In this document: piece after piece, positions 9,287-63,535 of the stretch
Layout of the letters: every line of letters starts with the position of its first letter
Numbering within the stretch: position 1 is the stretch's first letter
Source: Isurus oxyrinchus
Lineage: Eukaryota
Assembly: GCA_026770705.1 (NCBI GenBank)
Contig: JANJGN010000013.1
Coordinates: 130,572,001 to 130,636,000 of the forward strand
Reading direction: 5' to 3'
DNA: 64,000 bases
Notes under the pieces: model-generated
Told to the model about the DNA's origin: nothing
Databases searched by the model: none
The model's input: the letters and a program-made list of their open reading frames with translations, nothing else
Position numbers and translations under genes: made by a program

Positions 9287-9505
9287 AACAGAAAATTCTG
9301 GAAACGCGTATCAGATCAGTCAGCATCTGAAACAGAAAAATTCTAATAGAACTCTTCATCAGTGTGAGGGACTTGTTCCCAGTCATTATGAATGAGCCCT
9401 GGTGGATGGTTCCAAACAAGATATTAAACTGTCTTTTTCTTTTCTGTCCTGGCTGACATGCTGTGTATTTCCAGCAATTTCTGCTTTGATTTCAGACATC
9501 CAGCA
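9287..9505. mobile_element. Old head-to-head pair of Penelope-like element ends
   Basis: Left arm aaacagaaaattctggaaac...cagcatctg and right arm ...gctgtgtatttccagcaatttctgctttgatttcagacatccagc are degenerate inverted copies of the tail seen at 53547-53902. Confidence 0.5.
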
Positions 9506-11434
9506 TTCACTTCTGCTCTTAAAATTTTGCACCAGTTTACCCAAGTAAACAAGCATCATAGTTCAGCTGTGATGCTGTTAATGTAACAAATATTCTTAGT
9601 TAAAGCCAAAATTAATTTGATTAAAATGGACTGATGTGTGTGTTCCTTCTCAGAGAACTGGAATTCCATTGATAGTTTATACATTGTCTACTGTGATGGC
9701 ATTTCTGTACAGTTTAAATCTTTCATATGCTTTTGAATTATATGGAATCTACAGCATAGAAACTGGCCATTCAGCCCAAATAGCTCATGCTAGTGTTTAT
9801 GCTCCACATGAGCCACCTCCCATTCTTCTTTTCATCCAATCAACTTTTATTCCCTCGTGTGTATCCAGCTTCTCCTTAAATACATCGCACAGATGGAAAA
9901 ATGAAGCAACTCCTGTTCACCTCCTTGTTCTTAATATCTGCAGCAAGGGAGAAAAATGAACACACAGATTAAACATGTCTGTGGACACAGTAAATGTGGG
10001 TTGGGAATGGTACAGGCCAGTAATTCAATCAAATAGTTCTAATGATGCGCTGATTTGTGAGAGCAAAACTGAAGCCGTCTGCGAACCTCAGCATGATCCC
10101 AAGATTAAGCTATTGATTTACAAACTACCTGGCACTGAGTTTATTTGTTAAAATGTTAAGTCTATTATTTATATACATCTAGGTGAAGAATCAAGGCCCA
10201 TAGTGCAGGACACGTCCAAGATTGAAAAATGTAGGAGAGAAGATGAGTTAAATCAAGTAGCAGTTTGGGTTTTATAAACTTGTGGATTGGAAGAGGAAGG
10301 AGAGACTGAAGAAGGTGCGGAGCTCCACATCTTTGAGGTCCTAGGAAAGAGTGAGTTAGAGACAGTGCAATGGATCTTGATTTTAACGCAATGAGCATAT
10401 GGGAGGACAAAGAACATGTCGGGTGGTGTATTTGAAGCTTAGGAGAAGCCAGAGAGGAAAGAAAATTTCCCAAAATACACAACTGGTAACACTGTTCTCA
10501 TGCGCCATGAATGTGGTGCTTCTGTCTTTTTCCTCCACAGAAATGAATAATTTTGTGCAATATCTTTTATGTTCATGCCATATTTGTATAAAAAGAGTTG
10601 TATCATGTATCCAGAGAGCTAGACTTAATCATTAAACACAATCTCACTGACAGGATTTGATGTAATGTAAATCATAGCTGGGAAGAATGTGCATGTTAAT
10701 CTCATAGTCAGACCTCCAGAAACAAGTGGGTCATTCTTGTGCACATAAAAACATTTCCATCATATAAAGGGTCAATTAGCTGTCTGGACCATCTGTCTGA
10801 ACCTGACTCCTTAATGTAAATCCATCTTATTTAGTACCATTCAGGCTTCTGCTTTATGAGATAATATGTACAGTTGTAATTCTTTGAATAATAAAAGCAC
10901 CATTAGGAATTTTGATATTTGTTATTCATCAGGGTTTCCTCAGATGTTCCTGAGGCAATCCTAGTCATTTTCATAGAAACAGCAATACGTGAAGAGCAAT
11001 CTTTGTCCATTGTAGCATTGGATGATAGCTCTACAAAATAAACAGTATACAGAAGAGAACTGTATAAATTAAAAGTTACATTAAACAAGGCAGCTATTTA
11101 GAATGAACCCAAATATACTGAATATCTGTTGATTCTCTTTCAAATGTTATTGTAAATTTCTACAGTATTTTGTGAAATTTAATTGTGAAAAGGTTATATA
11201 TTGCATTTTTATATTGATTGTATTGTGTCATGCACAGTTAGGTACAGTTTTCCATTTATGCCAAATCCCTACTTCTGTTGCAGAAATTGCAGAGTAAAGG
11301 TTGGTTACTTAGAAGGAAAGGGAGAGTCAGACATGCACACAACAATCTTAAACATGTGCATTGCTTGAGATAGATACTGATTCCTGATGTCGAAGAACCA
11401 GTAGAGCGAGAAAAGATCATTGGAGAGTCCAGAC

Positions 11435-11520
11435 TGCTCTCTCCACAGACACTACATGATCTGCTCAGTGTTCCCAGCATTTTCTATTTCTATTTCAGAC
11501 ATCCAGCATCTGCAGGTTTT
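11435..11520 (+). mobile_element. Penelope-like element tail fragment
   Basis: ctctctccacagac...ctgctcagtgttcccagcattttctatttctatttcagacatccagcatctgcag matches the family tail. Confidence 0.6.
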
Positions 11521-14500
11521 TTAAATTTATTTTTTTGTAATTATTTTTACGTGAGCCACAAAACCTTTTCATATATTATTTTCTTTATAGATTGTGTCTT
11601 GTTTTAGACATGGCTATTACAAACCCTCAAAATAAGAGGTTGATTCGGAAGGTAGAATCTGTGGGTTAGGCAGTTGATCTTGAAGGTATTTCCCGAACAG
11701 CTATACATATCAGGAAATTTCCCAGAAGCATTGGCCTGCAAAACAGATGTGTCTACCAGATACATTAACAAGTAGCAGTTTGTCTGGAAATGAGGGAACA
11801 TTCATATATGTTCGGATGACAACAGAAAAAGGTTTTAATCTGCTGTTTACTTATGCGTGTGGCAGATTACGCTGAAGAATGAAATATTTTTCTTCATTTT
11901 GTCTTACTTGATTCCAGCACCACTGGGGTATAGGGAGAGAATGATCCCAGAATGACTCCTGATGTTCACAATCTTGCATTTTTTGCTTTGTTTAGTCTTC
12001 TTTTTTGAAATGCTTTCTAAAAACAAAAAGAAACGCATTGATAAATTTCTTAATTTCCATGAATTTTTGTCTTCAAAGAGTAGCGGAATATACGATGGTG
12101 GGCAATTGCCTCTTGTGTAAAACTGGCAGCATGCTTCTACCCATATGAAAATCTTTGTGTCCGTAGGAGTATAGCATTCCACTTATTCTCGTAGCATGGT
12201 ATTACCAATCAGATGCAAGAATAATATCCACAACAAATATCATTATAGTCCATACCAAAAGCTGATATTGGAAATTTGAATACATTAAACCACCTGAATA
12301 CATCTAACTTCCTATGTGCTAATGATTTATGTAAGTTAAAATAATTATACTCATTTCAAAATGGAAGTTCCAAGTAAAATGTTAATTCATTTAACATTAA
12401 GTCAAATTAGGGAGTCAAATTATGAGCAAATCCAGTCAGAGGCATCAACCACCCCGTGGCCTATTCAATTCTATTTTATAAATAATGTTGTCTCGAAGCA
12501 ATGTCAAGAGGTCAGCTAAATCTTTATGAGTTAAGAGTGCACTTTTTTCCCTAATTTTCTATTTTTTCCCAATACAATACAGACATTGAAAATTCAAGTT
12601 ATTATTTGAACTCAGCATTTAAATATTGTGAATAATGACAGGAAAATATTTTAAAAGTTGTTGGATTAGTATATTGCCTTCAATTTCCTAAACAATTCAT
12701 TGTTTAATTATCATCATCCAATTCCTTTTTTAAAAAAATCAAGTGGTAAGAAAATGATTATGTATGCAGTTCAAATATCCAGCTTAATCCTGATATTCTT
12801 TGAGCTAGGGTTCTGCATGCTAAAAATGCTGTACCTCTGAAGTCAAATGACTGAAAAGCATTAGCTTGACATTAAAATCTGATTTTTTTTTTCCTTTTTT
12901 AACAATTCTTGGTCTGGTTTATGCAATAAAGATTGAAGAAATTATCTGAAGTATTAGGCTTTCAGATGGTTATTAAGGCAATTTTAGGGACTAAATTTTC
13001 ATCAGGGGCTTGCTGTGTATTGCCTTCAATACATTCAATCTGTAACAAGCAAAGTGGATTTCTCAGTTGTTTGATTTGGAATTTCTCATGTATGATGATG
13101 ACATTCTGCGCATGTCAAATTCACAACTAACTGAAAATAAATGGCTCCAACTTAGAAACACTGCTAAGCCAATGCCTCTGATAACAGCACACTATTTTAA
13201 TAACAGTCAAAATAAATTTAAACAGTCAGAATTAAAGGATAATTTTTTTGTAGCCTTTCAATTTTTTTTGTAAAAGGCTTCAGATGAGTCTACCTGAAAA
13301 GTAAAGTGTATTCTACGACCATTTATTAGAGTCCTTTGTTAAAATTTGATGCATGTATAAGATTCTGGACTATTTAAAAACGAACTGAAATCGATAGAAA
13401 ATCTGGATAGGTTTTTAAAAATGACCCCGTGCAGTACTGCAGTGAAAATCCCCAGCTTTCAGCAGGAAGCTTAATGAAGAAGAAAGCCCATCAAATCTAT
13501 GAGTAGATGCAAAGTGTGCTGGATCCCGGCATTCGAATCCTGAGAGAGCTGTTATTGCGCACAGGCCATTGTGATTTCATTTCCTGCACTTTATTGCTTT
13601 ATTTTATAGGGGAATAAAATAGTCAAGTGTGATGTGTTTCAAACGCTGTGAATGATGGAGTGCCAAGGTGTATTATAATTAGCAGCATTGCCCAAACTGC
13701 AGCAGCATTAAGCAATAGATAAAGAATAATGCATACCTGGGACTCATTGTGAGGCAATGAATTACGCTGCAAACTGCAAAAAGTAAGTGGAGCTCCTCAT
13801 AATAAAAATCTTCCCAATGATGTTACATTACAGGCTTGGAAGCACTCCCTGGTATCCATGCATATTTTACTGACTTTTTTCAATGTAATTTTATTTTTGT
13901 TTTCATCCAAGCTCGTACATTTTTTAATTCACTTCAGCTTTTGGAGGCAGGTTCAATCGAGCCATTTCAGAAGGGAACTAAACTATCATCTGAAAAGGAA
14001 GAATGTGCAGGGTTACGGGGAGAAGGTGGGGAAATGGCATGAGGTGAATTGTTCATTCGGAGAGCCAGTGCAGTCACAGTGGCCCAGTGGCCTCCTACGC
14101 CATAACGATTCTGAGAGGCAAAGCATGGAAGTGATACTGCAGTAAAAGACCAGGTATTAAGTGATTGAGTAAGTTTTTGAATTCTGTGCTGTGGTAGCCT
14201 GAAAGTTGTTTTGCATATTTAAGTCAAGGTGTTTAAGGTTTAAAAAATAAATATTCTGATGACAAATTGTGGGGCAAGCGCTTTTTGCTGAACTCATCTC
14301 CTGAAGGCACTGGCAACCTCACAGTGCCCCAAGTAAGTTGCTATTCTTCTTTTGAGAGTTTAGGCGCTGAATGTCAACAGATTATTCAACCATGTGGCAG
14401 CACCGCAATTGAGCCTGTCTCAGCCAATTTTGCTTTCCAGTGATCGTTGCGGAATGCAGTAATCAGAAGCAGAAATCCTATCCAATTGTACCATCCTGCT

Positions 14501-31864: not shown

Positions 31865-32619
31865 CTGAAAAAAGACATTTTGTCAAAGCTTTTCATCTTG
31901 CATTGAAGACAATTCACAAGAATACCAATGTAAGGGAAAACAATATATTTATACTGCATTAGTGTGCTGATTAGTTGGCAAGTTGACGGGCAGAGGCATT
32001 GCCATGGTGAATGTACCAGCTAATGTGACTGACTGTTAACTGCCAAGCATTGTTGCAATTTAAACTGGGCAGCTTGACTCTGATTGGTCAAGGCATTGCC
32101 CTGAGGAATGAACCAGCAAATGGCTGTCACTTATTTAGTTTAGCTGAAACAGGCACAATGCATTCTTTCTGTCCTCAAAGAACAGGACCCTGTGTGTTAA
32201 CATATGTAGCTTCCAGTAGACGCAAAAGTGCCACACTGCGAGCCCAACTGACCATGTTAAATTGGTTGTCAGCGTAATTCTCAGCACACTGAGGATTATT
32301 TAGCACATGTCCAATCACAAAATCACATCTAATGTTGGACACTGTGTTTTGAGTTTTACAAGTACGGGCTGGTTGGGTAGACTCTGTACCTTGCCATTGT
32401 GAACAGTCGAAGGGACATGCTATCTGCCAGTCTTTTGGTGTATGGTCTATACTTGCGTGATAGGCTGAATGATGTGGTGTATGAATTTCAGTGCCAGTGT
32501 GATGCTAGGTATGTAGGCTGTCCAAATTCCATTTGGAATAATGCCCAACATTAGATGTGAATCTGCGATTGGACAATGTTTGCTAAATAAGCCTCAATGT
32601 GTTAAGAATTACACTGACA
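31865..32619. mobile_element. Penelope-like element remnant (GIY-YIG endonuclease region) with internal inversion
   Basis: Plus strand 32471-32521 reads DVVYEFQCQCDARYVGC (GIY-YIG-type motif); minus strand ~31865-32430 carries the endonuclease C-terminal region and 3' repeat; 32545-32619 is an inverted copy of 32267-32338. Confidence 0.65.
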
Positions 32620-33940
32620 TCCATCATGGGGAAATGTTAGAAGCTATTATTAAGAAGCTATGGCAGGGAACTTGGATAAGTTCAGAGTAACCAGGGATAT
32701 GATTTTGTGAAATGGAAATTATGTTTATCCAACTTATTGGAGTTCTTTGAGGAAGCACCATGTGCTGTGGATAAAGGGGAACCGGTGGATGTACTGTCCT
32801 TAGATTTCCAGAAGGCACTTGATAAGGTGCCACATCAAAGGTTATTGCGAAAAATAAAAACTCATGGTGTAGTGGGTAACATATTGACAAGCATAGAAGA
32901 TTGGCTGGCTAATTGGAAGCAGAGAGTAGGCATAAATGGGTCTTTTTCAGGTTGGCAAGGTGTAATGAGTGTATGCCACAGGGATCAGTGCTGGGACCTC
33001 AACTGTTTACAATTTATATCAATGACTTGGATGAAGGGATGGATGGGATGTTTGCCAAATTTGCTGATGACACAAATATAGGTAGAAAAGTAAGTTGTGA
33101 AGAGGACAAAAGGATGCTACAAAAAGATATAGGTTCAGTGAGTGGGCAAAGATCTGGAAAATGGACTATTATGTAGGAAAATGTGAAATTGTCCCATTTT
33201 GGCAAGAAGAATAAAAGAGAAGCATTGTATCTGAATGGTGAGAGATTGCAGAGCTCAGATGCTGATGGATCTGGGTATCTTAGTGCATGAATCGCAAAAG
33301 GCTAGTATGCAGGTACAACAAGTAATTAGGAAAACTAATAGAATGTTATCATTTATTGCAAAGGGAATTGAATACAAAAGTAGGAAGATACTGCTTCAGT
33401 TGTACAGGGCATTCGTGAGACCACATTTGCAGTACTGTGTACAGTATTGGCCACTTTATTTAAGGAAGGATGTAAACATGTTGGAAGCAGTTCAGAAAAG
33501 GTTTACCATCTAATACTTGGAATGGATGGGTTGTCTTATGAGGAAAGGTTGAAAGGCTAGGCTTGTATCCTCTGGAGTTTAGAAGAGTAACATATAAGAT
33601 TCTGAAGGGGCTTGACAGGGGACGTGGAGCGGATGTTTCCTCTTATAGGAAAATCTAGAATGAGGGGTCACTGTTTAAAAATAAGGAGTCGCCCATTTAA
33701 AACAGATAAGGTGAAATTTTTTCTGAGTGTTGAGAGTCTTTGGAACTCTCTTCCTGAAAAAGCGGTGGAAGCAGAGTCTTTGAATATATTTAAGGCAGAG
33801 GTGGATAGATTCTTGGTAAGCAAGGGGGGTAGGCAGGATGAAGATTTGAGGTTAATATCAGATCAGCCATGATCCTATTAAATGGTGGAGCAGGCTCGAG
33901 GGGCTGAATGGCCTACTCCTGCTCCTTGTTCCTGTGTTCA
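32620..33940 (+). mobile_element. 5'-truncated CR1 LINE, reverse transcriptase domain plus 3' tail
   Basis: NLLEFFEE..VDKGEPVDVLSLDFQKALDKVPHQRLL; PQGSVLGPQLFTIYINDLD..FADDT; LLQLYRAFVRPHLQYCVQYW; tail gggctgaatggcctactcctgctcc. Frameshifted. Confidence 0.95.
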
Positions 33941-36160: not shown

Positions 36161-36296
36161 GAGGTACGAGTCACGACCCATCTGTGCTGAGCTGCAAGAG
36201 GATGTCCTCCGTTGCTATCAGAAGAACCCAGATCAGACTCTCAGCTGCTCTGCATTGGCCAAGCAGTACATTCACTGCATTAACTATGCCAAACAG
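36161..36296 (+). CDS. CHCHD3: CHCHD3/MIC19 CHCH-domain exon (136 bp; (K)RYESRPICAELQEDVLRCYQKNPDQTLSCSALAKQYIHCINYAKQ)
   Basis: Acceptor catttcttttccccag, donor GTGAGC at 36297. Splices in frame to 8882-8952 (AA|G = Lys). Contains CX9C-X10-CX9C. Closer to CHCHD3 (RYESHPVCADLQ...QTLKCSALATQYMHCVNHAKQ) than to CHCHD6. Confidence 0.96.
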
Positions 36297-38019
36297 GTGA
36301 GCACAATATTGTCGGTCAAAAAGCTGGACATGGGCAGGGAGGAATTGGGCCAGAGGAGAGGAGGGACTGGCACTTGTGGACCTTAATGAACTGAGCTTCT
36401 GCTCTGAGCCCTTTTTATAACCATTTACCTGTAAAACTGGAGACCCTTTTAGCTTTATCACTTCCCCATCAAAACACACTTTTTCTTTTTAGCTTTTTAT
36501 ATGCCTAAGCTCACAAAAAAGGTCAACATGTGAGCTTTCTCTGATAACTCACTTTATAAATTGACAGGATAAGATCTGGTGTGGCTGTACTGCCTTCCAT
36601 GATGAGAAATGGCTTTGCTAATACTCACTTTCTAATTTCACCCATGAAGAATGGCCACTTGGACAGTAACAAAGGACTGTCTTTTCTGTTGGAGCTGTAC
36701 AACAGTAAGAATCAGTCAGTGCCTTCCTGACAGGGGATGAGTCAAGGAAGTGTTTTTATATAGAATTTACAGGATAGCAACAGACCATTTGGGCCAAATA
36801 GTCTGGGCTGGTGATTGTGCTCTACACAAGCCTCCTTGCATCTTATTTCACCTAATCCAAGCAACATCCTGCTCTTCCTTTCTCCTGGTACAATTCCTTC
36901 CTCTCCCAGTGCTGGTGCCAGTATATTTAATATCTATCTCAGTGAAAACATGGTCCATCGAGCGATAGTAGAGCTCTGCTTCTTGTAAACGCTTGCAAGA
37001 CAAAGATTTTCAATTACTGTATTAAACTAATTTTCAGCAGTGTTATTTTAGCACTACTCAATGTCTCTCGTTGTACTGAGTACGTTGGAGTTGGAATGAT
37101 CCAAGTGAGGGAAGCATAGAACTGATTGTGACCTAAGTAACTGAATCTGTCATCATGTAATTACTGTGGGGACTGGAAGAAACAGTTTACTGAGAAATAA
37201 AGTCATGCATTACTTGAATAAAAGAAGAGAGTCAGAAAATGTATAGCATATTTGTCTTTATTTGTAAAGGATGTGTACCTTTTATCAGTCAGAGACACTT
37301 TTTTTTCCTCCTGGACAAGTGTCCAATATATTTTTCAAAACGGAAGAGGAAGAAAAACAAATGAGTGGTTAAGTATCTTATTAGCCAGCATCTTGCAGTA
37401 AAAATAATGGTGAGGTTGATTCGGACTTTGTGTCTCTCAGTAAGGATTCCTCAATCTCATTGGTTAAGGAGATGCAGCATTACGTGCCTAGGTCCTACAG
37501 GTCCAGGAACCCATGTAGAGGGACCATGTTGTTTTGAAACTTAAATAACGACAAAAGCTGTTATAAGTGCAAAAACCCACAGAAAGTTTGTGAAAGTATA
37601 ATGAACATAAGAGCGCCATTTATTCATTGCTGATCACAAGATCCAGTCGGTTATTGAATTTTGGCTTTGTCCCAGCCTGTATCCCAGCCCCGGTAGGAAA
37701 ATAAGAAATGATTCAAAACAGGGTAATCTGTTGAATATCTGACTGCTTACAAGTAGACTTAAATGCAGCAGTACATCAGCAAACGTTCATTGTGTATTGG
37801 CATTGATTATTGGAAAAAGAACTCTTTCATAAGAGTAAATAGAATTAACAAATTGTTACTGAAAGAAACAATGATTCTTACATGGGAACAGATGTATTTT
37901 TGACTATTTGGTGCATCAGATCTGCTCTACCATTTTCTTGCCATAGCGCCTCTTTGTATATCAGTCCTCTTTATTTTCTCTTCTCTATATCTCCTTACTA
38001 CTTTTACTTTCAGATAAGA

Positions 38020-38290
38020 TTGTAGTCCGAGGTCTCACCTGTCTGCTCAGTTCAATGCCAATTTCCCATTCAAGTTCGAGAAGGAAATCTCCTGGTGTTG
38101 TGTTCAACTTTCCTCCCTCAAACCGACACCGCCAAAACATAACTGCTCATTTCCTGTTTGTGGTATCTTTACTAGCTGTCAGAGTTGCCTGTTTTACAGC
38201 AGTGAACACTTCAGAAGTAATTCATTTGCTTAAAGCAGTTTGGGCAGTCGTAAGTAAGAGAAAGTCACCGTATAAATCAAAGTTATTTCC
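38020..38290 (+). mobile_element. Degenerate Deu-domain SINE fragment
   Basis: ccgaggtctcacctgtctgctcag...cagtgaacacttcagaagtaattcatttg similar to 44252-44690. Confidence 0.45.
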
Positions 38291-38387
38291 TTACTGCCTA
38301 AGTGCTTACCTATTTTTTTAAGTATCTCAATTGATATATATGCTATGTTGGTGTGTTCACATTTGTGCAACCATTTGTGTTTGTTTT

Positions 38388-38850
38388 TTTGATTCGTTTA
38401 TGGGATGCAGGTATCGCTGGCAAGGTCAGCATTTATTGCCCATCCCTAATTGCCTTTGAAAAGATGGTGCAGTCTTTGTGGTGTAGGTATACCAATAGTG
38501 CTGTTAGGAAGGGAGTTCCAGGATTTTCACCAGCACTGGTGAAGAAACAGCAATATAATTCCAACCTGGGATCATGTGACTTGAAGTGAAACTTGAAGGT
38601 GATGGAGTTCCCGTGCACCTACTGCCCTTGTCCTTCTAGGTGGTAGAGGTCGCAGGTTTCGAAGGTGCTGTCAAAGAAGCCTTGGCGATTTGCTGCAATG
38701 CATCTCGTGGATGGTGTACACAGTTTGCCACTGTGTGTCTGGTGCAGGGAGTGAATGTTTAAGATAGTGGGTGGGATGCCAATCAAGCGGGCCTTTGTCT
38801 TAGATGGTGTCGAGCTTCTTGAGTGTTGTTAGAGCAATGACCGTTCAAGC
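38388..38850 (-). mobile_element. CR1/L2-group LINE 3' fragment
   Basis: Reverse complement of ~20520-20995. Confidence 0.85.
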
Positions 38851-41800
38851 AAGTGTGTGAAGTAATTTCTGAAAATTCTTTTAACCAACTTAACCCCTTG
38901 TTCAGGATTCCTTAACTAGAGAGGAGAGTTGCTCCTAATGTACCTTTCAATCCCTTTTGTTTTAAACATCTCAGTCAATTACCCCCTTAACCTCCTCATC
39001 CAAGGAAATATTATTCAAATTTACCGAGTTCTTATTACATTACTGATGATATACTGGTGAATCATCACCAGATTTTGTTCAAAGCCAAGAAGCCTTTCCC
39101 AAAAGAAAACATAATATTCCACGATTTTTGTTTAATATTTCTGCTATTTTAGGGCAAATGATTTGGCACAACATGATGCCTACTTCTAATTCCTGGGCTT
39201 GAAGTGTGGTAGTTTCTGAATGATGACAAATGCCTTGCCCTTGTTAGTTTTTATTTCACGCTCATTTTATTTTTCAGTTTACTTGCATAATACACCATTC
39301 CCTACACAAAGTATAAAAAAACAGAAGAAAACATAAAATGAGAAAAAAAAACCATTCCATCCGACAAGCCTGCAGCTTGCACAGACCAATTGCAGTCTAC
39401 CCTTCCTCCAACAACTACAGACATTCAGACTAAGAGAACTGGCAGGCAAAACTGTGGCTAATAATGCTCTGTAACTAGCAGCAGCATCATATACCAGGGT
39501 GATAGGTGGCTTCCATTTTTCCCCCACCTCTGCTTTGATCGTGTAACAAACGCAAGACAAGTTGGGGATAAGAAGTGATCGGTTGGCCCAACATGGGTCA
39601 CCCCCTTTTAAAACATCATCTCTACCAGCATGGTGCACAAATTAATTTTACATTTACTTTGCACCATATTCCACTTATGTTCTCCTTTTCATTCTAAAGC
39701 ACAAAAGCAAGTCTTTCTTTTTCCTGCAGCAGGATGTATACATTGCCAATCGGCTTAATGAGAACTATAAAAGGTTTATTAGGTGAATGTATTACATTTA
39801 TTAAGATCGATTATCTTAATAGAAACAGAGAGAGTGCAATAGGCTGCAAGTGAGTACATTCCTGAAAAATCAAACAATTGGTTGAAAACAACATGGAAAC
39901 CTTTGATAGTCTATTCTTTTGCTCTTTTTATAATCCTGTTTTCCTTCCTCACTTTAGAGCCTACTGGGTAAAGGAGGTTAAAACAACCTGCCACCACATC
40001 AAAAAGCCCTCATCGTCCATTTCAACAACGGAATATCTTTCAGGAGCAGCCAAAGAAGCTCAGCTAAGCATCAGGACAATATGGGAAAGAGGAAACAAAA
40101 GGCCATTGTCACCACGGCAACAGCAGCAGCAAGCACCCTAATTTAATCAGTGGGGATATGTTCAGCCAGGTTGTAAATGCCTTAACAACCTGTCAGGCTT
40201 ATAGACCTACCAGAAAAATGTTCAGCTTTTCTGTAATTGTTCTGTCCTATGACATTAAATTGAATATTTTTGTTTTGTTTCGTATGAGGCCTTTGAAACA
40301 TTCTAACAATAAAATGCAATTAAATCTGTCTTTCAAAGATCAAAATGCAGCATACTTGTCCGAAGCTTTGTGGTTCTGGTAATAGTGTCTGGGTATTTGA
40401 TATACAAAATGCCTTCGGTTATTTTGTGTGTACATAATTTCACAGTCTAGTTCAATAGATTTTTGTTTCTAAAACCTTTTGGTGATCAGCATAGCAGACA
40501 GTGTTTGGACATTGTGATTTTGTTAAGCTGAACTAGCATAACTCCATTATATCTCGAGCCACATCTGAGCTGCTAAAATCACAATTCAAATCACGAATAC
40601 CCTTTGCTGCGTATGGGCCTGGATCTTGTGAAAAGAAGTGACCAACTAACCTGGTCCAGAATCACCACCAGTAGTCTATTGATCATCCTAATGGTGAATA
40701 CAAATTTAACATCAATAAAAAGTTGTTTTGGCCTCAGTCTGACATTAAATTTGTGGATAGTAAATTGGGAATTATGGCCCAAGCCGACTGCAAAGAGGAA
40801 TGGAAGAACTCGGTTTCCTCCAGGGAAACTTGCTTTGCTCTGGTGGCATATTGAAGACTGAAAATAGGTGGAGGAGGATGATGAGTGGCATTTTACCACA
40901 ATTGCAATATCACAGGTTATTATTGTGGCTTTGCTAACGTTCTGACTCAGACCTACTCCCAGCTGAGCCACAGCTCACACTGTATTGTGTTTAACAGATT
41001 TGGAAAATGTGGAGGGACCTGTAAAACCGGGTCTCTACCCCTAACGGGCATGATATTGGTTTCCCAGGGATGAGTGATGCAAGTTCCTGCTTGGAACATT
41101 CTACTATGCAAACAATACAGGTGAGGCATTATAGCACATTCTCCATTTCTATCTGACCTCTATGCCCGGCTCATGTTATTCTGAAAAGATGCCCATCTAA
41201 GTGAGTGAATAGAGTTGCTAGATGCTAAGCAGTGGAGAGCCATTGAAGAGTCGTTTGTGATCGCTTGTCTTTTTTCTGCTGCGGCCTAAGTTCTCACAAG
41301 CCTTTAAACCCAGCACCCTAATCCCAGCATGATACTGCATGAAAGAAGGTATGCAGGGGTGATCATCAGGCAGCAAAGCCTAATTAACTGCATTCCCCTC
41401 CACTATTGCCTATCTTTTCAAACATTGTCACAGCTACCTGGCAACAGATAATGGAAGGTCCTTCATAGTAACTTGGTCATGTTCACCATGGAGATTGTGA
41501 GGTAGTCACTATACCAAGTCAACTACAGATTCAAGTGTATTCCTAATCCCTTCCATGCATGTGTTTATGGGACTGGTGCTATGGAATGCCACAAGATGGA
41601 ATCTTCTTTGTAACCTCCGAATGCTGCACCACAAACAGGTGATTCGATGCTGGGCTACTCAAAGTTGCCTACAGTCTTGGGGTTTCCTTTACATTTATTG
41701 TTCTTAATCATTTCTTAAGGCCCTGGTCTTTTTCCCTTGCCAAAGACCACTAATGAGTTGAGAGATGCATTTTTGTACCTTCCCAAAGGGTTTCATTGTT

Positions 41801-43661
41801 CCTGTCACCCTATTGTCACACTTGATTTTAATTGCCCGCCTTACTTCAAAACTTTTGCTTACAGTTGCCCTCAGTTTTCTGCTCTCCCCTACCTTCGCAA
41901 ACTTATAAATAATTATACAAATGGACCGACCCAGGAAATGTAATTACTATTCGCACTTCAACATTCTGACAGATCAACCCCAGTTTGTAACAATCTAAAC
42001 TAATTGACACTAGTAAACAAACATCAGGCCCATTTATTCTCTGCTGTTTGTACTCAATGATTACGGATGGATTTCTTGATCTGCGCTCTTGGCACCTCTT
42101 ACAATGTCTTTGTTATAAAAAGTTGTTAACGTATCTGTACTCTTGCCCTCTACCTGTTGTCTGCTGCTGACCCACTTTATAGTTTGTCCATTCAGTCCTT
42201 CAAGCCTATTGAGGACAATGCAGTTCATTCATCGCTGATCTGGATCTTAATCGCCATTTCCCCACTTTGGATTTATGTCCCTTAATACCCATGCCCTACA
42301 AAAAAATACTTATCAATCTGAGTCTTGAAATTTTTATTTGACCTGGCTTCTACAGATTTTACGGTGTTATGAAGGAAACTGGCCTATCTATATTTTTTTT
42401 ATCAGTTCTAGTGAAGAGTCTAATCCAAAATGATGGTCTGTGATTATTCCGTTTGGATCTGTGCACCAGCTTTGCCAAAACCGGTTTCCTTAACCTAAAA
42501 TCGGGGAACCCTAAAAATATGGGTGCACAATTCTACCACTGGAATAAGAAAAGCTTAATGACGATAGGTAGGCCAACTGTACATTTTCCGTGTTTTGTAT
42601 CAGAATTTCAGGTTTGCACTCTTTTTTTATCTCAGTTTTCATTTCCGACGTGAACAGCTAAAAGTTATCCTCATGGCTAACAACGAAATACAAGCACACT
42701 GAAATAAAGCTTTAAAAAATGGGTGTAAAATCAATTAATCCCAATCGTCTACCACCACTGCTCGCAACACTCCTGACCTAAAACGTGTTAAAATGTTAGA
42801 GTTTGAGTGTGGCCACACTGTTTTCCATAGAACTGGAAAATCATAAATCACAGCTTTTGATGGATTGGGAAGTTTTACAAATCATTGTTACTTTTCCCAA
42901 GTCATAGAGGTAATTTGAGAAGTGTTTGGCCAGTGTGGGAGTGAGGGGGGAAAAAAAAAGATGGCAGGAGTGGTGGGGCTATTGAAGCCACCCAGGCTAT
43001 TGAAGTAATCAAAGACTTAATGCCAGCCAGAGCCTCTATCTTTGTCTCCTCATGGTTTGATCTACAGCACCAAACAATCATTTTGGGCTAAACCTATGTA
43101 TGCATTACAAATCATGTTAATTTCTTAGACTTAATGCTGCAGTTAATTCAGAAAGCACTACTTTTTTTATATGAATTTGTGACCACGCTACCATATTGGC
43201 ACCCATTCAAAATGTTAATTTGATAAACCATGATCAAGTTCCTGAATGGAAACTGTTGCCCCAGTCAAAATTTATGATTTTGGCATGGTCAAAACCACAT
43301 CACACATGGGATTTTAATGTGCTTTAAAATTACAGTGTCACAAATAATCATTCTAAGTGCAGTATCATATTCAAACACCCTATTGCGAATAGAAATTAGA
43401 CTCAGCCTCAATAAACCAGCACGTTTAAAATCACTACCCTTTTAGGCTAAAACATAAGTTTTCAACCTGAGAACATTGTGGGTTTGCTTTATTTTTGGAT
43501 AAGGATTCAATCTTTTTTTCCCTACCTGGTTGGCTTCAATAGCCCCTCCACTCCTGCCATCGTCTTTTTTTTTCCTCTCCCCCTCACCCCCACACTGGCC
43601 AAACACTTCTCAAATTAACCCTTTGAATTGGGAAAAGTAACAATGATCTGTAAAACTTCCC

Positions 43662-44040
43662 CAAAAATGAAAGCAAAAAACCGCGGATGCTGGAAATCCA
43701 AAACAAAAACAAAAATACCTGGAGAAACTCAGCAGGTCTGACAGCATCTGCAGAGAGGAACACAGTTAACGTTTCGATTCCATATGACTCTTCAACAGAG
43801 CTAATGAAAAATAGAAAAGAGGTGAAACATAAGCTGGTTTAAGGGGTGTGGGGTGGTGGAGCAGGTAGAGCTGGATAGAGGGCCAGTGCTAGGTGGAGAT
43901 AACCAAAAGACATCGTAGACAAAAGAGCAAAGAGGTGTTGAAGGTGGTGATATTATCTAAGGAATATGATAATAGGTGACATTAAGGGCAGAAAGCAGGA
44001 CGAGCAAGGTACAGATAGCCCTAGTGGGGGTGGGGTGGGG
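43662..44040 (-). mobile_element. 5'-truncated Penelope-like element end with 13-bp TSD
   Basis: TSD TGTAAAACTTCCC at 43649-43661 and 44041-44053; contains the family tail and a hammerhead-like motif. Confidence 0.85.
43764..43802 (-). ncRNA. Minimal type-I hammerhead ribozyme-like motif (variant core CUGUUGA)
   Basis: Minus strand AGCU-CUGUUGA-A-GAGUC-AUAUG-GAAUC-GAAAC-GUU-AACU; one mismatch each in helix I and helix II. Confidence 0.5.
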
Positions 44041-44251
44041 TGTAAAACTTCCCAATCCATCAAAAGCTGCATGATTTTCCAGTTCTATGGAAAACTGCGT
44101 GGCCACACCCAAACTCCAACATTTTATCACGTTTTAGGTCAGGAGCTTTGTCCTGCTAAGCATTAACAGTCTTTTCTAATTTTCTTTCAGATTTCTAGCT
44201 TTTTGTCTAACTTTCTGGTTAGCTAGAGTCATCTTTATTTGTATTACATGA

Positions 44252-48619: not shown

Positions 48620-49000
48620 AATCCCTTGGTGTCAGATGTCTGAACAATGAAGAAAGACTGAAGAAACTTGGACTTCTCAGCTTTGAAGGATTTCTTTATA
48701 AGTAGATTTGAAGGTCCTATATAAGTATAAAAGTTAGTGAATTCTATGGATAGGATAAATCCAGACAATTGCTTTAACTTAACTTATGAAACTAGGCAAA
48801 GAAACATGGGCTCAAACAAATGAAATTTAGGGCTGACACCAGTAAGACCTATTTTGCACGAAAACAAAGAACAGACTTCAGAACAGAGCCATGAAGATTA
48901 AAACTTTGCAATCTTCTGGGAACCATTAGATGCGGTATTAATAATTTCAGGGTCATTCTAGGTGGATGAATTTAGATAGGACGAATAGTCTCCCTCATCC
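48620..49000 (+). mobile_element. Old CR1 3' fragment
   Basis: Degenerate gaagaaagactgaagaaacttggacttctcagc...gataggacgaatagtctcc. Confidence 0.5.
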
Positions 49001-49425
49001 ATAGCTGACTACTGACTTGTTTATGAATCATGGTGCTATGTTGTCCCTGAACCATTCCAAGTATATACACTTTATAAGAATGCCATTGATTTGGGGTGCA
49101 CTTAAACCGCAGAATTATAGATAGCCATTCACAGAATGTGCTTTATGAGAGGTGTTCCTCATTTGCAATTATCTAATGAACTCTCTACTTGCTCCAATAG
49201 CTCAGTGCTATGTGCCAGGAAGGTACAATCCCTGCTCTGTTTTGAGTTGACCAGACTAGACAAATTATCAGCACCATTGCTACCACCGATCTCTAACCAG
49301 ACCCTCTCCCACACTTCATAGTATGTATATGTGGTTGCCATATGATTCCTGATCTGGCTCAGCAGTTATTTAACTTGCCCCCTGCCTGTCCCCACACACA
49401 TTTGCAAAGGCATACTAACATTAGC

Positions 49426-49612
49426 AAAAGTAGCTGGAAAAACTCAGCAGGTCTGTCGGCATCTGCGGAGAGGAACACAGTAGACATTTCGAGTCATGTG
49501 GACTCGAAACGTCTACTGTGTTCCTCTCCGCAGATGCTGTCAGACCTGCTGAGTTTTTCCAGCTATTTTTGTTTTTGTTTCAGATTTCTAGCATCCGCAG
49601 TATTTTGCTTTT
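49426..49612. mobile_element. Fold-back (palindromic) Penelope-like end
   Basis: 49431-49495 is the reverse complement of 49501-49565 (3 mismatches), loop ATGTG; tail continues to ~49612. Confidence 0.85.
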
Positions 49613-49921
49613 ATCTAACACACATTAGGTTAATGCAAGATGAATAACCACTTGGGAGTGGTATTGGGAGCCTACCGAAGGCAATTTTATGTTTGAACAT
49701 TGCAAACAGCCCTGACTTGTTTCAGTTGCAGTAGGATCAGCTTTTTCATGGTCTCCAGCTGCTTCTGCCTAGCAACTAATGGAAAATAGCGCTGGGTATA
49801 AACACAAGTATGATGAAATCCACAGGTTGCAAACTGTTTCCAGCACTAGCTTTGGAATTCAAAGCCTATATTTTTTGAGACAGTCCCTAACTGAAAAATA
49901 TACCAAAACTTCAGCTTTCTG

Positions 49922-50687
49922 TGTAAGAGTGGGTGTAACCCAGGAGTCCTGGCTGTGACACCAGATTTCTGGGATATCAGCCTGTGACTTTAGTTTGTTA
50001 GAGAAACAGAAGCTGATTGAAAGCCTTGTGTCTGTTTTTTTCCCCTCTGAGATCAGATTTCAGCAAGGGTCAAAGCAGAAGAGACTGGTGTGAAGATCTG
50101 TGTGAGTGAGGCAGCTAAAATAGAACAAAAACTGAAGTTTGGCAGCAGGAATAGTGAAATTAAGTTACTGCCGCTGCTTCAGTTTTTACCAAAGTGGGCC
50201 AGACTGAGATGTTATTGAGTGGTTGGATGAAGGTGGATCTGGGGAATCTATGCCATATAGACTGTTGTGAACCAAGCTTAGGAGGTTCTGCAGAAGCAAT
50301 CCCTTTTTGGTGATAATCATATCCGAGGAACTCAGATGGAGTAAAGCTATTGTCGGAAACAACTTGAGGAGCAAATCCTGAGTGATAAAATAAGAGTTGA
50401 ACTCCACCAGAGGAATATAGAGTTGTGAAGGACTTTGGGATTGCATGTGGTGCCACTTGTGTGCTAAGAGGACTGCCCCCTGTATCATTGTTGTATCAGC
50501 TATTTACAGTGTAATTTATAGCTTATATTAAATACAAGTTACTCATTAATTTACGTTTCATTCATGTTGATTTTGGTTTGCTTGTTATTAAAGTAAATGG
50601 TATAAAAGAGAAATCTTGTCCTTTGGTTTCTTCCGGTGGGGTCATATGCTAAGTTTGGTTCTATTGGTCTCCACAGGGACCATGACG
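49922..50687 (+). mobile_element. Solo-LTR-like element
   Basis: TGT start, catgac(g) end, ATTAAA signals and T-rich U5-like segment; TSD unclear. Confidence 0.45.
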
Positions 50688-51495: not shown

Positions 51496-53546
51496 ATTTT
51501 TGAGCCCTTGTCTTCAATCTGCAACATAAGTGATCTAAATGCCATAGAAAAGAAATAAACTTCCATTGCCGATCAGCTATTGTTATACCACATGTACCAG
51601 TTTGGGCTTGGTTCCTCCTTGGAGTGGCAGCATAGCAGGCATGATCGATTGTTGTAACTCCTGCATCTGCCCTGGACCAAGGAAAATTGCAGCTCACACA
51701 TGTGCAAGTGTTACTCACTAATTGGTTAAAAGTTTCAAGTTAACAAAAACAACCGAGACTTTGCTAAATTTGAAAAGAAAAGAAGTTAAGTTTGAAAAAT
51801 GTTGATCTTGCATCAATTGTCTCTGTTTTATTTGGGAAACTTTCACATTAATTATATTATTACAGCCTGTATCAAAATTGCTTTGTGTCAACAGGAAACA
51901 ATATGAACACAGGAATATTGGATGGACACTCCCAGACTTCCTGCACTGATCCCCAATGATAAATCAGATAATTTGCTATGTTGTGAAGACCATCATATAC
52001 AATGAAATAATTCAGCTGCTAAAACAAAGCTGTGATCTTTTAGTGACACCAAGTCTAATTAACAGTATGTAAACATTAGGCATTGTGAGGATGTAATTGT
52101 TTTTCAGGTTTTCAGTTCACAACTTTTTTTAAAACTGTTTTAGCAAGGTCACTCAGTAGTTACAGATAATCTGGCTCCTTTGTCAAATTACGACCTGTGG
52201 TTCTTAAAACTTTTCTTTTTGAAGTGTGATTGAAATTTGAAAGTGCCACTTGCAAAATGACAATCAGAAAGTGTATTTTTAAATTGTTTATCAAATGTAT
52301 AAAGCATGTTTTATTGCATTGAAAATTGTATACTATGAGTTGAATATAGTATTGAGTTGACTCAGCTGCTAAACCTTTAACTCTTGCTCCACAGGCTGTG
52401 GGATCAAGGCCCACACCAGGAATTGAGCACATGGTCTAGGCTGATATTCCAGGATTGACACAGGTGCTGTCCTTCAGATATAAAACTGATGTCCCGGTCA
52501 GATGGGGTTAAAAAGACATGTCATGTAATGTAATGTAACATGTAATGAAAATATATCTGGTTTGATATACTTGAAAGACTGAGATATTAATAGGCCCAAA
52601 GCACCTTCTTCATTTGAACATACCTTCTGATCTCAATTTTGTCATCAATGCTGTTTCGGGGAGGGAAATATTTTTAAATTGTATGCACTTGTGTAGTTTG
52701 AATGTGGACCCATTAGAAAGTGGATTGATGATGCCCAATTTGCACCTCACTTAAGACCCTTGCAGCTGAAGAGACTTCCAACCAATCAGTGTATGTTGGA
52801 TTCAAATCCAAATTCCAGAGTTTAAAATACCACATGCAAATTTATCATGCCACTCAAACCTTTAATGTTTGACATTTCTATTGCTTGCGTGCCAAACATT
52901 TTTAAGAGCTAATACTTTAGAACTCTAAATGCCTTCATAATTACTGTACATGATGCACACAGCTTTAATCTGCAGCATTTTAATCACCTAAATTAAGAAT
53001 TGTAATTAACAGCTCCAACACTCCCCTGGAAAAGAGCCATGGTGCAAGTTCCACAACATCTAAATATATTAACTACTAAGTTCCTCATTAATTACTGTAT
53101 GTAAATTATGAGTTCTCCATTTTCATGGTTTGTCTGTCATGACATCTGTGCCACAAATATAACTTTGTACCTTTAAAGGTAGGAAAACATCCCAGGTCAC
53201 TTCACAGGAACATAATAAGTTCGCACCAAGTCAAAGAAGGAGATGTTAGGATAGGTGACCACTGTTGTTTTAAGAGAAGTCTTAAATGAGGAGAAATGGA
53301 TGAAGAGAGATGGAAAGGTTTTGGGAGGAAATTTGGGAATTTATAGCCTTGACGGTGAATGATTGCCAATGATAATTTGAAGGAAGTGGGGGCGACAGAC
53401 TAAAGAGTTGGAGGAACACAGAGTTTTTGGAGGGTTGCAGGATAGGAGGAGAGATAGGGAAGGGTGAGGCCATGTAAGATTTTAAACACAAGGATAAGAA
53501 TTTTAAAATTGAAGCGTTGGAGGACCAGGAACAAGTATAGATCAGC

Positions 53547-53902
53547 AAAACAAAAACAGAATTACCTGGAAAATCTCAGCAGGTCTGGCAGCATCGGCGG
53601 AGAAGAAAAAAGTTGACGTTTCGAGTCCTCATGACCCTTTGACAGAACTGAATTTGATTTGGTTGACCACACTATCCACTTCCATTGTCCCATTGAGTGG
53701 GACTGCCTTTGCCTCATTCCACTCTTAATTATCCAGTCATAGCCTAAGAATCTCCTGAAGTTCTGTCGAAGGGTCATGAGGACTCGAAACGTCAACTCTT
53801 TTCTTCTCCGCCGATGCTGCCAGACCTGCTGAGTTTTTCCAGGTAATTCTGTTTTTGTTTTGGATTTCCAGCATCCGCAGTTTTTTTTTGTTTTTTTGTT
53901 TT
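53547..53902. mobile_element. Composite insertion: inverted PLE end + 110-bp captured local DNA + PLE end, 14-bp TSD
   Basis: TSD TATAGATCAGCAAA at 53536-53549 and 53903-53916; arms 53547-53649 and 53759-53861 differ at 3 sites; 53652-53761 is the exact reverse complement of 54556-54665. Confidence 0.93.
53759..53797 (+). ncRNA. Minimal type-I hammerhead ribozyme-like motif (variant core CUGUCGA)
   Basis: AGUU-CUGUCGA-A-GGGUC-AUGAG-GACUC-GAAAC-GUC^AACU: 4-bp helix I, 5-bp helix II, loopless palindromic helix III (ACGU), GUC cleavage triplet. Confidence 0.65.
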
Positions 53903-55079
53903 TATAGATCAGCAAACACCGGTGAGACAGGTGATCAGGACTTAGAATATGGGCAACATAGTTTTGGAATAGCACAGGTTTATGTAGGGAGGGAGATGGG
54001 AGGGTATCCAGGAGAACATCATTAATAGGATTCATATCTGGAGGCAACTAAATCATGGATGAGGTTTTCAGTAATAGATAAGCTGAGGCAGGGGCAGAGA
54101 TGAGTGATGTACGGAGGTGAAAGTAGTCGATCTTTGTGATTCAGAGGATATGGGATTGGAAGCTCAGCTCAGGGTCAGATAGGATGACAAGGTTGTGAAT
54201 AGTCAAGTTCAACCTAAGACAATGGCCAAAGAGGGTTGGAATCAGTGCAAGGGAACAGAGTTTGTGGAAGGGGCTGAAGATAATGACTTTGGTCTTGCCA
54301 ATGTTTAATTGGAGTAAATTACAGCTCATCCAGAATGGGATGTTGGACAAGTAATCTGATAAAACAGAGGCAGTGGAGGCTTCGAGAGAGATGGTTGTGA
54401 GGGGGAACTGTGTGTCATCAGTGCACATGTGAAACCTAATGTCATGACTTCAAAGATATTGCCGAGGTACAGCATGTCAGTGAGGAACAGGAGCAGGATA
54501 AAGATTGATCCTTTCAGGAGTCCGGGTGTAGCAGTGCAGGACAGTAAGAGAAGCCACTTCAGGAGATTCTTAGGCTATGACTGGATAATTAAGAGTGGAA
54601 TGAGGCAAAGGCAGTCCCACTCAATGGGACAATGGAAGTGGATAGTGTGGTCAACCAAATCAAATGCTGCAGAGAGTTCAGAAATATGCACCGTGGTTGC
54701 AGTCACAGAGGAACTCATTTGTGACTTTGATTAGAGTAATTTTCAGTACTGTAGCAGGAGCAAAAACCTGATAATTGAAGAGATAATTGATAATTCCTGT
54801 GGGAAGGATGGACTCGGATTTTGGAGGCAACACAGTCAAGGGCCTTTGGAAAAGGAGATTAGGGATGGGAGAGTGGGGTGCAAGGAGAGAGGGGGTCCAG
54901 GGTAGTCCTTTGAGGAGGGGGTTGTTGATGGAAAATTTTGAAGTGTGGGGGGGACAGCTCCTTAGGAGAGGGAAGAATTCCAAATCAGCTATCATAGGTC
55001 CCAGGAAAGGATGTTGGATGCCAAGGATTTTGAACTTTTTGAACACAGACTTTTTGGTGCCTGTCCATAAGGAAGACTA

Positions 55080-62549: not shown

Positions 62550-63535
62550 GGGTCACTAACTCTGGTTGGATGTACTCCTGGAGGTTTCATAACACAAATT
62601 CCTGTCTTTAACGTGCACTGCCCCCACCATTGGTCTCCCACATAACCAACACCCTTCCGTGTCAACTGGATGGCAAACTGGCTCTCACTCAACAGATTTG
62701 GGTTATCCTTGACGGTCAGTCAAACTACCTTTTTAACACATCTGCAATATTTTTACAACTAAGAAATGAAAGTGTTCAAAGAAAATTAAATTAGATTTTT
62801 TTTTAATGTCCCTACGTTCAGCATCTTTAATTCTTGGGGATTCCAGGACAACCCTGGAGAGTTAGCAAATGGGGACCTTTGCAAATATTCACACATTCCC
62901 AGGAAGGGGCCTTTATCATAGATTGTGAAAGGCAAGGTTAATTAACTAAGGGACTTTGTCACTGTGACAGAAACCATTTATTTTTTGTGTACAGCAATAG
63001 AAATAAGTCAACAAATATAGAAATCTGAGCACTTTGTAGATCTACTGGCATCTGGGAGTATAAAAACATATGCCTTACTACAATAGGAGCTCTGATGAAA
63101 GGCCATCGACTTGAAACGTTAACTCTTGTTTCACTCTCCACAGGTGCTGCCTGGCCTGCTGGAGATCTCCAGCATTTTCTGATTTTATTTCAGTTTTCAG
63201 CATTTTGCTTTTGGGTTAATTTGGGTTGACTGGAGTCTCCAGGAATTTAAGACGTTGCTGCGAGCAGCCCAGGAAAGAATTATACGGGCAACAATTATTT
63301 TTTATTTTCTTTGAGCTGTCTTGTCTATTTGTTATAAAGATAGCAGATATGGAATGCAGGGCTGCTTGACCGACAGTCTGGAATCATCCAATCAGGTAAG
63401 AAAGAGTCCAATTCACTTTCCAATTGGAGTGGGGACCATGAGGTTTGACATGTTAGGTAAGCAATCATGGGATTGTGGGGGAGGGCCAATCAATTAATGG
63501 CACAGCCAGGATTATGTCCAGCCAGAATTGGTACC
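62550..63535. mobile_element. Two oppositely oriented old copies of a MITE-like repeat (62550-62870 and 63222-63535)
   Basis: Degenerate reverse complementarity (tctttaattcttggggattccag / ctggagtctccaggaatttaaga; gacggtcagtcaaactacc / gctgcttgaccgacagtc). Confidence 0.5.
63087..63125 (+). ncRNA. Minimal hammerhead ribozyme-like motif (canonical CUGAUGA core) in a PLE end extending to ~63215
   Basis: GAGCU-CUGAUGA-A-AGGCC-AUC-GACUU-GAAAC-GUU-AACUC followed by the family tail. Confidence 0.6.

What the first reader, a model, noticed from the sequence alone, without database searches (positions are those of the whole stretch)
49426..49612. PLE fold-back whose axis is exactly the hammerhead helix II hairpin
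Seen: 65-bp arms (3 mismatches) around a 5-nt loop, centred on GAGTC-ATGTG-GACTC. This is helix II of the hammerhead motif in sister copies (GAGTC-ATATG at 43781-43790 minus; GGGTC-ATGAG-GACTC at 53771). The CUGNNGA core is missing, replaced by the inverted arm. Inference: the cDNA folded on the ribozyme's own stem-loop and self-primed, so ribozyme structure may set the inversion breakpoint. Within the CHCHD3 pre-mRNA it would form a ~70-bp near-perfect dsRNA hairpin (possible ADAR or Drosha/Dicer substrate).
Basis: partly seen in the sequence, partly recalled or inferred. Interest (0 to 1): 0.7.

Follow-up and report, generated by a model that had tools for sequence, protein, structure and literature searches.

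The report
Mirror-image Penelope stub, ribozyme-stem joint
This DNA hairpin is one of tens of thousands of back-to-back stubs of a Penelope-like jumping gene in this genome; its two halves were likely copied separately onto the two cut ends of the target and joined at five shared letters of a ribozyme stem, a rare joint rather than the rule, and it lies past the end of the neighbouring gene's RNA as assembled, not in an intron.

Summary
The hairpin is real: 65-bp arms, 3 mismatches, loop ATGTG on hammerhead helix II. It is a head-to-head insertion of two ends of an endonuclease-bearing Penelope-like element, with a one-sided 43-nt tail and a 10/14-bp target duplication. This layout is published (PMC3846280).

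The helix II axis accounts for at most 57 of 15,732 pairs, while 9,247 join near the ribozyme's 5' edge. Fold-back predicts the loop always lies on the long-tailed arm; it lies there in 14 of 31 simple helix II cases and 19 of 39 cases of the commonest junction. One pair joins two subfamilies inside a 16-bp duplication, and two pairs hold copies of nearby DNA. This favours priming from both nicked strands, then microhomology joining.

The CHCHD3-like transcript ends about 8.7 kb upstream, so the hairpin is not intronic. This scan reached the twin-priming reading before, on other DNA.

The parts
49415..49424 (.). Left copy of the target-site duplication (10 nt; lacks 4 nt of a CA run present in the right copy)
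   Evidence: in the family, 40 of 63 pairs have a 13-16 nt duplication
49425..49495 (-). Short-tailed arm: inverted PLE end, from the 3' strand of helix II to the short 3' end
   Evidence: starts at element position +23, where +1 is the A of AGTT at the 5' edge of helix I
49491..49495 (.). 5-nt microhomology GAGTC shared by both arms: the 5' strand of helix II of the right arm and the reverse complement of the 3' strand on the left arm
   Evidence: L001: pL 13, pS 23, overlap 5
49491..49614 (+). Long-tailed arm: PLE end starting at helix II (+13). It holds the loop (49496-49500), GAAAC-GTC with the predicted cut after 49513, and the tail
49572..49614 (+). One-sided 43-nt tail, present on this arm only
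   Evidence: 58 of 63 pairs have one long and one short tail
49615..49628 (.). Right copy of the target-site duplication (14 nt)
53546..53886 (.). Sister head-to-head pair with both arms ending at the 5' edge of the ribozyme (+1 and -1). The 108-nt spacer 53652-53759 is an exact inverted copy of 54558-54665
43667..44110 (-). Sister solo copy with upstream pLTR, hammerhead motif and long tail (5' end approximate)
36161..40732 (+). Last two exons of the MIC19/MIC25-family (CHCHD3-like) gene: CHCH exon 36161-36296 and last exon from 39958, stop at 39979-39981, AATAAA at 40308 and 40714. It ends upstream of the hairpin

Best explanation
The locus is a dead head-to-head insertion of two short ends of an endonuclease-bearing Penelope-like retroelement, likely made when both nicked target strands primed reverse transcription separately and the two cDNAs were likely joined at the 5-nt sequence GAGTC of ribozyme helix II. 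Steps. (1) Staggered nicks about 14 nt apart give the duplication (duplication shown, nicking inferred). (2) One strand primes at the outer RT start (long tail) and the other at the inner start (short tail); the pattern is shown, and assigning it to two RT starts is inferred from PAc biochemistry. (3) The cDNAs usually end near the 5' edge of helix I (shown; cause unknown, possibly an RNA 5' end). (4) The two 3' ends are trimmed and joined by end-joining repair at the insertion site (inferred from microhomologies, blunt joins and local templated inserts). Helix II acts only as one of several self-complementary spots where the two ends can pair.
For: 58 of 63 unselected pairs have one long and one short tail, and 40 of 63 have a 13-16 nt duplication (control 4-10). 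The short-tailed arm reaches further 5' in 27 pairs, the long-tailed arm in 22, with 9 ties; fold-back cannot make the first group. Loop side is 14 long: 17 short in simple helix II joints and 19: 20 in the commonest joint. Junctions: 25 microhomology, 9 blunt, 29 with inserts. Locally copied DNA lies between the arms in the window's sister pair and in L171. L185 has arms of two subfamilies (14 differences in 34 upstream positions) within one 16-nt duplication. A loop-less TCATGA joint is at least as common as the helix II joint (85 at gap 8, 40 of the first 50 TCATGA-centred). In vitro, PAc nicks and extends both strands, starts RT at two sites bounding the tail, and is predicted to dimerise (PMC11167929).
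Against: At this locus the loop is on the long-tailed arm, which fold-back also allows. Both arms share a rare variant (GTCTACT), and arms within a pair are more alike than random arms (mean 3.4 vs 5.9 differences in 62 nt); this fits one template or fold-back as well. Only 1 clear and 1 possible chimera were found among 11 comparable wide pairs. 9 of 40 helix II hits are complex, mostly short inverted copies, which suggests snap-back on this stem can occur. Helix II joints are about 1.5-2 times the rough independent-ends expectation (about 35-46 vs 20-30). PAc lacks the linker type seen here, so its biochemistry is borrowed from another clade.
Confidence: 0.65

Rival explanations
1. Twin priming first made a longer palindrome with both arms reaching the 5' edge of the ribozyme. 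Later, its centre was deleted by slippage between the two direct GAGTC repeats about 45 nt apart, leaving the helix II joint.
For: The commonest pairs (9,247 of 15,732) would hold those direct repeats, and such a deletion gives the same sequence and the same even loop-side ratio. Palindrome-centre deletion is a known instability (own knowledge).
Against: Many helix II events have arms identical over the 20 nt compared and long exact duplications, so they look young. Junction inserts show that trimming and joining already occur at insertion. Not tested directly.
Confidence: 0.15
2. One reading: one cDNA, primed at the long-tail start, stopped after helix II, folded on its own stem, and copied itself back to make the second arm.
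For: The sequence at this locus fits: loop on the long arm and a perfect 5-bp stem, with a predicted cDNA hairpin of -3 kcal/mol. 8 of the 9 complex helix II hits are in families with ATA/ATG-type B loops. Self-priming was proposed for A. vaga Penelope from junction palindromes (PMC3846280).
Against: No excess of loop-on-long cases (14:17, p 0.72); the 95% bound leaves at most about 28% of helix II events to fold-back. It does not explain why the second arm ends at the family's recurrent short end, which solo copies also use. Helix II is 0.4% of joints.
Confidence: 0.12
3. Fold-back makes a symmetric double-stranded palindrome away from the target. The endonuclease then cuts one arm long and the other short at random, and the unit integrates.
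For: It would also give the even loop-side ratio. The tail has been ascribed to EN-mediated resolution of an intermediate (PMC8557442).
Against: 38 of 63 joints are blunt or carry inserts. Spacers copied from DNA next to the insertion site place the joining at the target. A two-subfamily pair needs two templates.
Confidence: 0.08

Closest known systems
EN+ Penelope-like insertions with an inverted pLTR, one-sided tail and TSD (Adineta vaga Pen2a; PMC3846280, passages read; PMC8557442, passages read)
   Same: Head-to-head inverted ends, a tail on one arm only, overlap at the joint, and a target duplication.
   Different: Here there are only about 70-125 nt per arm and no ORF; the TSD is about 14 nt rather than 8-10; there are at least 23,538 such pairs. 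The paper infers self-priming, whereas these counts favour two primed ends.
PAc (Poseidon of Anolis) in vitro (PMC11167929, parts 1-2 of 4 read)
   Same: Hammerhead in the pLTR with an ATG at stem II; two 3' ends bounding a tail; both strands nicked and extended.
   Different: The passages read report no analysis of inverted junctions. This family has a CX4CxxC linker of Neptune/Nematis type.
Minimal type I hammerheads of metazoan PLEs (PMC4209133, parts 1-2 of 4 read)
   Same: In sister copies: an extra nucleotide before stem II, the G10.1-C11.1 pair, palindromic ACGU in place of helix III, and a 4-bp helix I. The paper also notes pairs on opposite strands 100-700 bp apart.
   Different: This locus has lost the core and the 5' strand of helix I, so it is not a ribozyme. 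Many sisters carry CUGUYGA instead of CUGANGA.
L1 twin priming (Ostertag and Kazazian 2001; recalled, no call)
   Same: Both target strands prime; inverted pieces joined by microhomology; TSD.
   Different: In L1 the two pieces are different parts of one RNA. Here both arms copy the same stretch from two fixed starts, and at least once from two different RNAs.
Synthesis-dependent / polymerase-theta end joining (PMC5728401, PMC9303309, PMC4912351; search listing and abstract starts only)
   Same: Short microhomologies, apparent blunt joins, and short inserts templated in cis or in trans.
   Different: The enzyme responsible here is not identified.

Membership tests
EN+ Penelope-like element (Neptune/Nematis type) | pLTR with a hammerhead motif | tested here: met
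   48 longer copies show pLTR followed by the motif; sisters
EN+ Penelope-like element (Neptune/Nematis type) | C-terminal GIY-YIG endonuclease with CCHH, upstream of the pLTR | tested here: met
   The frame with LVY..YIG and C,C,H,H ends about 400 nt upstream of the motif in L009, L011, L020, L029. Pfam GIY-YIG hit E 2.7e-4 at 21.6 bits, just under the 22.6 cut-off, in 1 of 2 frames scanned
EN+ Penelope-like element (Neptune/Nematis type) | CX2-5CxxC linker before the endonuclease | tested here: met
   C-x4-C-x2-C in L181, L078, L152; definition from PMC8557442
EN+ Penelope-like element (Neptune/Nematis type) | RT domain placing it in a PLE clade | tested here: inconclusive
   A YIDD motif is seen in a frameshifted copy (L152); no Pfam RT hit; no tree built
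EN+ Penelope-like element (Neptune/Nematis type) | Inverted 5'-truncated copy, one-sided tail, target duplication | tested here: met
Minimal PLE hammerhead ribozyme (this locus) | Catalytic core CUGANGA and helix I | tested here: not met
   Absent at the locus; no Rfam hammerhead match in the window at E<=1
Minimal PLE hammerhead ribozyme (sister copies) | Self-cleavage, as dimer or protein-assisted | not testable with these tools
   The monomer fold of a sister forms helix II and helix I but is not more stable than shuffles (z 0.57)
Self-primed fold-back product | The 5'-longer, loop-bearing arm is always the first-made, long-tailed arm | tested here: not met
   14:17, 19:20, 22:27 with 9 ties
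L1-type twin priming | The inverted pieces are non-overlapping parts of one RNA (recalled) | tested here: not met
   The arms overlap over 71 nt here; it works like twin priming but is not the L1 form
Intronic dsRNA / miRNA precursor in CHCHD3 | Lies inside the transcription unit | tested here: not met
   Stop at 39981; RNA-like contigs of two studies end at 40732, where a genomic-looking run goes on (a weak hint). Read-through is not excluded
Intronic dsRNA / miRNA precursor in CHCHD3 | A-to-I clusters or 21-23 nt reads | not testable with these tools
   Only assembled contigs were offered, and the repeat attracts contigs from other copies. Rfam mir-3158 scores 51.8 bits against a gathering score of 97

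The most novel reading that the evidence does not exclude
Head-to-head PLE insertions are made by a dimeric protein that carries two RNAs, possibly paired through the palindromic ACGU of their minimal hammerheads. Each protomer primes one target strand at a different RT start and runs off an RNA 5' end at the edge of helix I. The ribozyme would then serve as an RNA-pairing and boundary element for double-ended integration, not mainly as a cutter, and the roughly 30,000 junctions in this genome are a ready read-out of the mechanism.
Probability: 0.2. Interest if true: 0.75.

Novelty: new member of a known kind. Interest (0 to 1): 0.42.

Why it matters
How PLEs make their inverted, one-tailed insertions is described as undefined (PMC8557442), and the explanation I found in print is self-priming (PMC3846280). 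Two things bear directly on that question. The loop-side test (even in 31 and in 39 events) and the two-subfamily pair argue for two primed ends, and they turn the in vitro finding of two-strand priming into genomic predictions. I found no paper applying twin priming to PLEs: 'Penelope' + 'twin priming' + 'inverted' gave 2 hits, neither about PLEs by title; 'Penelope' + 'twin-priming' gave 0; searches added nothing. The library lacks most subscription papers. The locus itself is an ordinary dead copy with no sign of function.

Tried and rejected
1. Helix II as the general breakpoint: rejected.
2. One amplified palindromic subfamily: rejected; flanks and duplications differ in every event, and several loop sequences occur.
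3. A cap-derived G marking the 5' hotspot as a capped start: not seen (G before +1 in 4 of 81 truncated arms).
4. A spliced template with a common first exon at the AG|TTCTG acceptor-like site: no shared upstream sequence among 42 copies. The cause of the hotspot stays open.
5. Expression or editing of the hairpin: no listed holder is on record as RNA. The RNA-like contigs leave the unique flank 48879-49355 uncovered, and the repeat is covered by contigs of other copies. Neither is evidence for or against.
6. Rfam hits to mir-3158 and psbJ-4 are generic hairpin matches below the gathering score.
7. Local templating of spacers: found in L171 and not in L174, L178, L180 or L199 (1 of 5 within the loci held).
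8. Chimera search by internal sequence was not decisive; the top differences were mostly short arms or indels, and L135 may simply be old.
9. PMC9977147, PMC2377424, PMC5625713 and bioRxiv 10.64898/2026.07.22.740005 (passages only) gave background, not a test.

Full report
OBSERVATION. The hairpin is as described: 65 paired positions with 3 mismatches around ATGTG at 49496-49500, and an RNA fold far beyond shuffles. The left arm ends at 49425. The right arm runs 43 nt further, to 49614. The unit is flanked by a direct repeat, 10 nt on the left and 14 nt on the right, differing by part of a CA run.

WHAT IT IS. The arms are the end of a very abundant repeat in a 4.98-Gb genome; the shark-like look is recalled, not from a call. 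Longer copies carry a pLTR ending in a minimal hammerhead motif (48 copies). About 400 nt upstream they carry the end of an ORF with a GIY-YIG-type endonuclease, CCHH residues and a C-x4-C-x2-C linker (the Pfam hit is just under cut-off). That is an EN+ Penelope-like element of Neptune/Nematis type by the criteria in PMC8557442. I number positions from the A of AGTT at the 5' edge of helix I (+1); helix II is +13-17 and +23-27. At this locus the long-tailed arm starts at +13, the short-tailed arm at +23, and they share GAGTC. The core is gone, so the locus is not a ribozyme.

Exact outer anchors find 23,538 head-to-head pairs with a 20-170 nt gap (control 0) and 6,137 more with a 171-500 nt gap. 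With inner anchors on helix II's 3' strand there are 15,732 pairs. Of these, 57 have the 5-nt gap of a helix II axis, 85 have gap 8 (40 of the first 50 are a loop-less TCATGA palindrome), 1,552 have gap 38 (about 41 of the first 50 are one joint in helix I's 5' strand), and 9,247 have gaps of 35-55. In the GTTAAC-type families, to which this locus is closest, there are 563 pairs. None of the first 50 listed is centred on helix II, and 3 of the 50 helix II-gap loci carry those anchors. These counts need exact matches and so favour young copies.

UNSELECTED SAMPLE. I analysed 63 pairs: those in the loci around the first 50 matches (first 7 Mb of C1), incidental neighbours in other loci, and the window's sister pair. 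Three pairs with gaps of 120 or more, or overlaps over 50, were dropped; loci chosen for their junction were left out; the finding itself is not in the set. The 5'-most arm starts between -5 and +5 in 43 of 63, and none has the helix II joint. So the axes are not uniform, but the hotspot is the 5' edge of the ribozyme, not helix II.

A rough independent-ends model expects 20-30 helix II joints and 17 TCATGA joints among 15,732. About 35-46 and about 68 are seen. Helix II is therefore a modest microhomology peak, weaker than a palindrome with no loop.

FOLD-BACK OR TWO PRIMED ENDS. 58 of 63 pairs have one long and one short tail, and 40 of 63 have a 13-16 nt duplication (control 4-10). In fold-back, the first cDNA must hold both the long tail and the loop, because the copy cannot contain what its template lacks. 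I examined all 50 listed of the 57 gap-5 loci: 10 are a different joint, 31 are simple helix II joints, and 9 are complex. Among the 31 the loop is on the long arm in 14 and on the short arm in 17 (p 0.72; fold-back at most about 28%). For the commonest joint, 40 loci picked from the first 50 listed gave 19 long, 20 short and 1 unclear. In the unselected set the short arm reaches further 5' in 27, the long arm in 22, with 9 ties.

Joints are microhomologies of 1-6 nt in 25, blunt in 9, and carry inserts in 29. The sister pair at 53546-53886 holds an exact inverted copy of 54558-54665, and L171 likewise copies its flank, so joining happened at the target. L185 has arms of two subfamilies inside one 16-nt duplication, with short and long tails; it is 1 clear case among 11 comparable pairs. 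In vitro, PAc nicks and extends both strands and starts RT at two sites that bound the tail (PMC11167929). Together these favour two separately primed cDNAs joined by end-joining repair.

RESULTS AGAINST THIS READING. This locus has the loop on the long arm and a perfect stem that the cDNA is predicted to form (-3 kcal/mol, not beyond shuffles), so fold-back cannot be excluded for it alone. Nine helix II hits are complex; in most, only a short inverted copy next to the stem is present before another joint, and 8 of the 9 are in B-type loop families. That fits brief snap-back on helix II, or abortive pairing between two cDNAs. Arms within a pair are more alike than random arms. A later deletion between two GAGTC direct repeats in a longer palindrome would give the same sequence and was not tested.

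THE 5' HOTSPOT. It sits at a pyrimidine-rich stretch followed by AG|TTCTG, which resembles both an initiator and a splice acceptor (consensus motifs recalled). In D. virilis Penelope the intron end maps to the 5' end of helix I (PMC4209133). I found no cap-derived G (4 of 81) and no common first exon. An RNA 5' end is my preferred cause, but it is unproven.

HOST GENE. MIC19/MIC25-family exons lie upstream of the window on the + strand. Contigs from three RNA-like runs splice these exons and end at 40307, 40688 or 40732, next to AATAAA signals at 40308 and 40714. The hairpin is 8.7 kb further on. It would form strong dsRNA if transcribed, and Penelope repeats are heavily edited in lizard (PMC5625713), but nothing here shows that this copy is transcribed.

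KNOWN AND NEW. The layout is published, with self-priming as the proposed cause (PMC3846280). The searches found no paper applying twin priming to PLEs, within a library that lacks most subscription journals. I read no supplements; Figs S1-S2 of PMC11167929 may bear on start sites and junctions. Earlier reports of this scan reached the twin-priming reading on other DNA and noted local copying; my reading was set down before I looked.

VERDICT. A real but ordinary dead insertion with a rare joint. The family-wide junction data remain a useful test of how PLEs insert.

Noticed in passing
window 53652-53759 and 54558-54665; L171: The spacer between the two arms is an exact inverted copy of DNA about 800 nt away; L171 shows the same kind of local copying.
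   Followed up: yes
L185:2235-2823: One insertion with a 16-nt duplication whose two arms come from different subfamilies; L187 and L186 are possible further cases.
   Followed up: partly
L006, L024, L058, L061, L073, L102, L137, L158: Copies that run past the long tail show a GT donor-like site after CCAG and an acceptor-like site just before an ATG, so the tail may lie in an intron. This locus has CT in place of that GT.
   Followed up: no
window 53760-53800; 48 reference copies: The 5' hotspot keeps a conserved AG across subfamilies whose upstream 30 nt differ widely; it looks like both an initiator and a 3' splice site.
   Followed up: partly
window 53776 onward: An ATG sits in the helix II loop, as in PAc, but in this family it opens only a short frame of about 18 codons.
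   Followed up: no
listing, e.g. G000:C1:233320793-233320863: Several pairs have different helix II loops on the two arms; these may be more two-template events or simply age.
   Followed up: no
window 49591-50186 (run X15): A genomic-looking contig of organism B, about 1-2% diverged from the window, starts inside the tail and runs into the flank, so the insertion may be shared.
   Followed up: no
window 63108-63203, 9449-9506, 11439-11521, 44152-44199: Older, 72-78% identical relatives of the same element end.
   Followed up: no
window 42951-43570 and 32263-32623: Other inverted repeats (46 nt arms at 91%; 43 and 34 nt arms), possibly DNA transposon ends.
   Followed up: no
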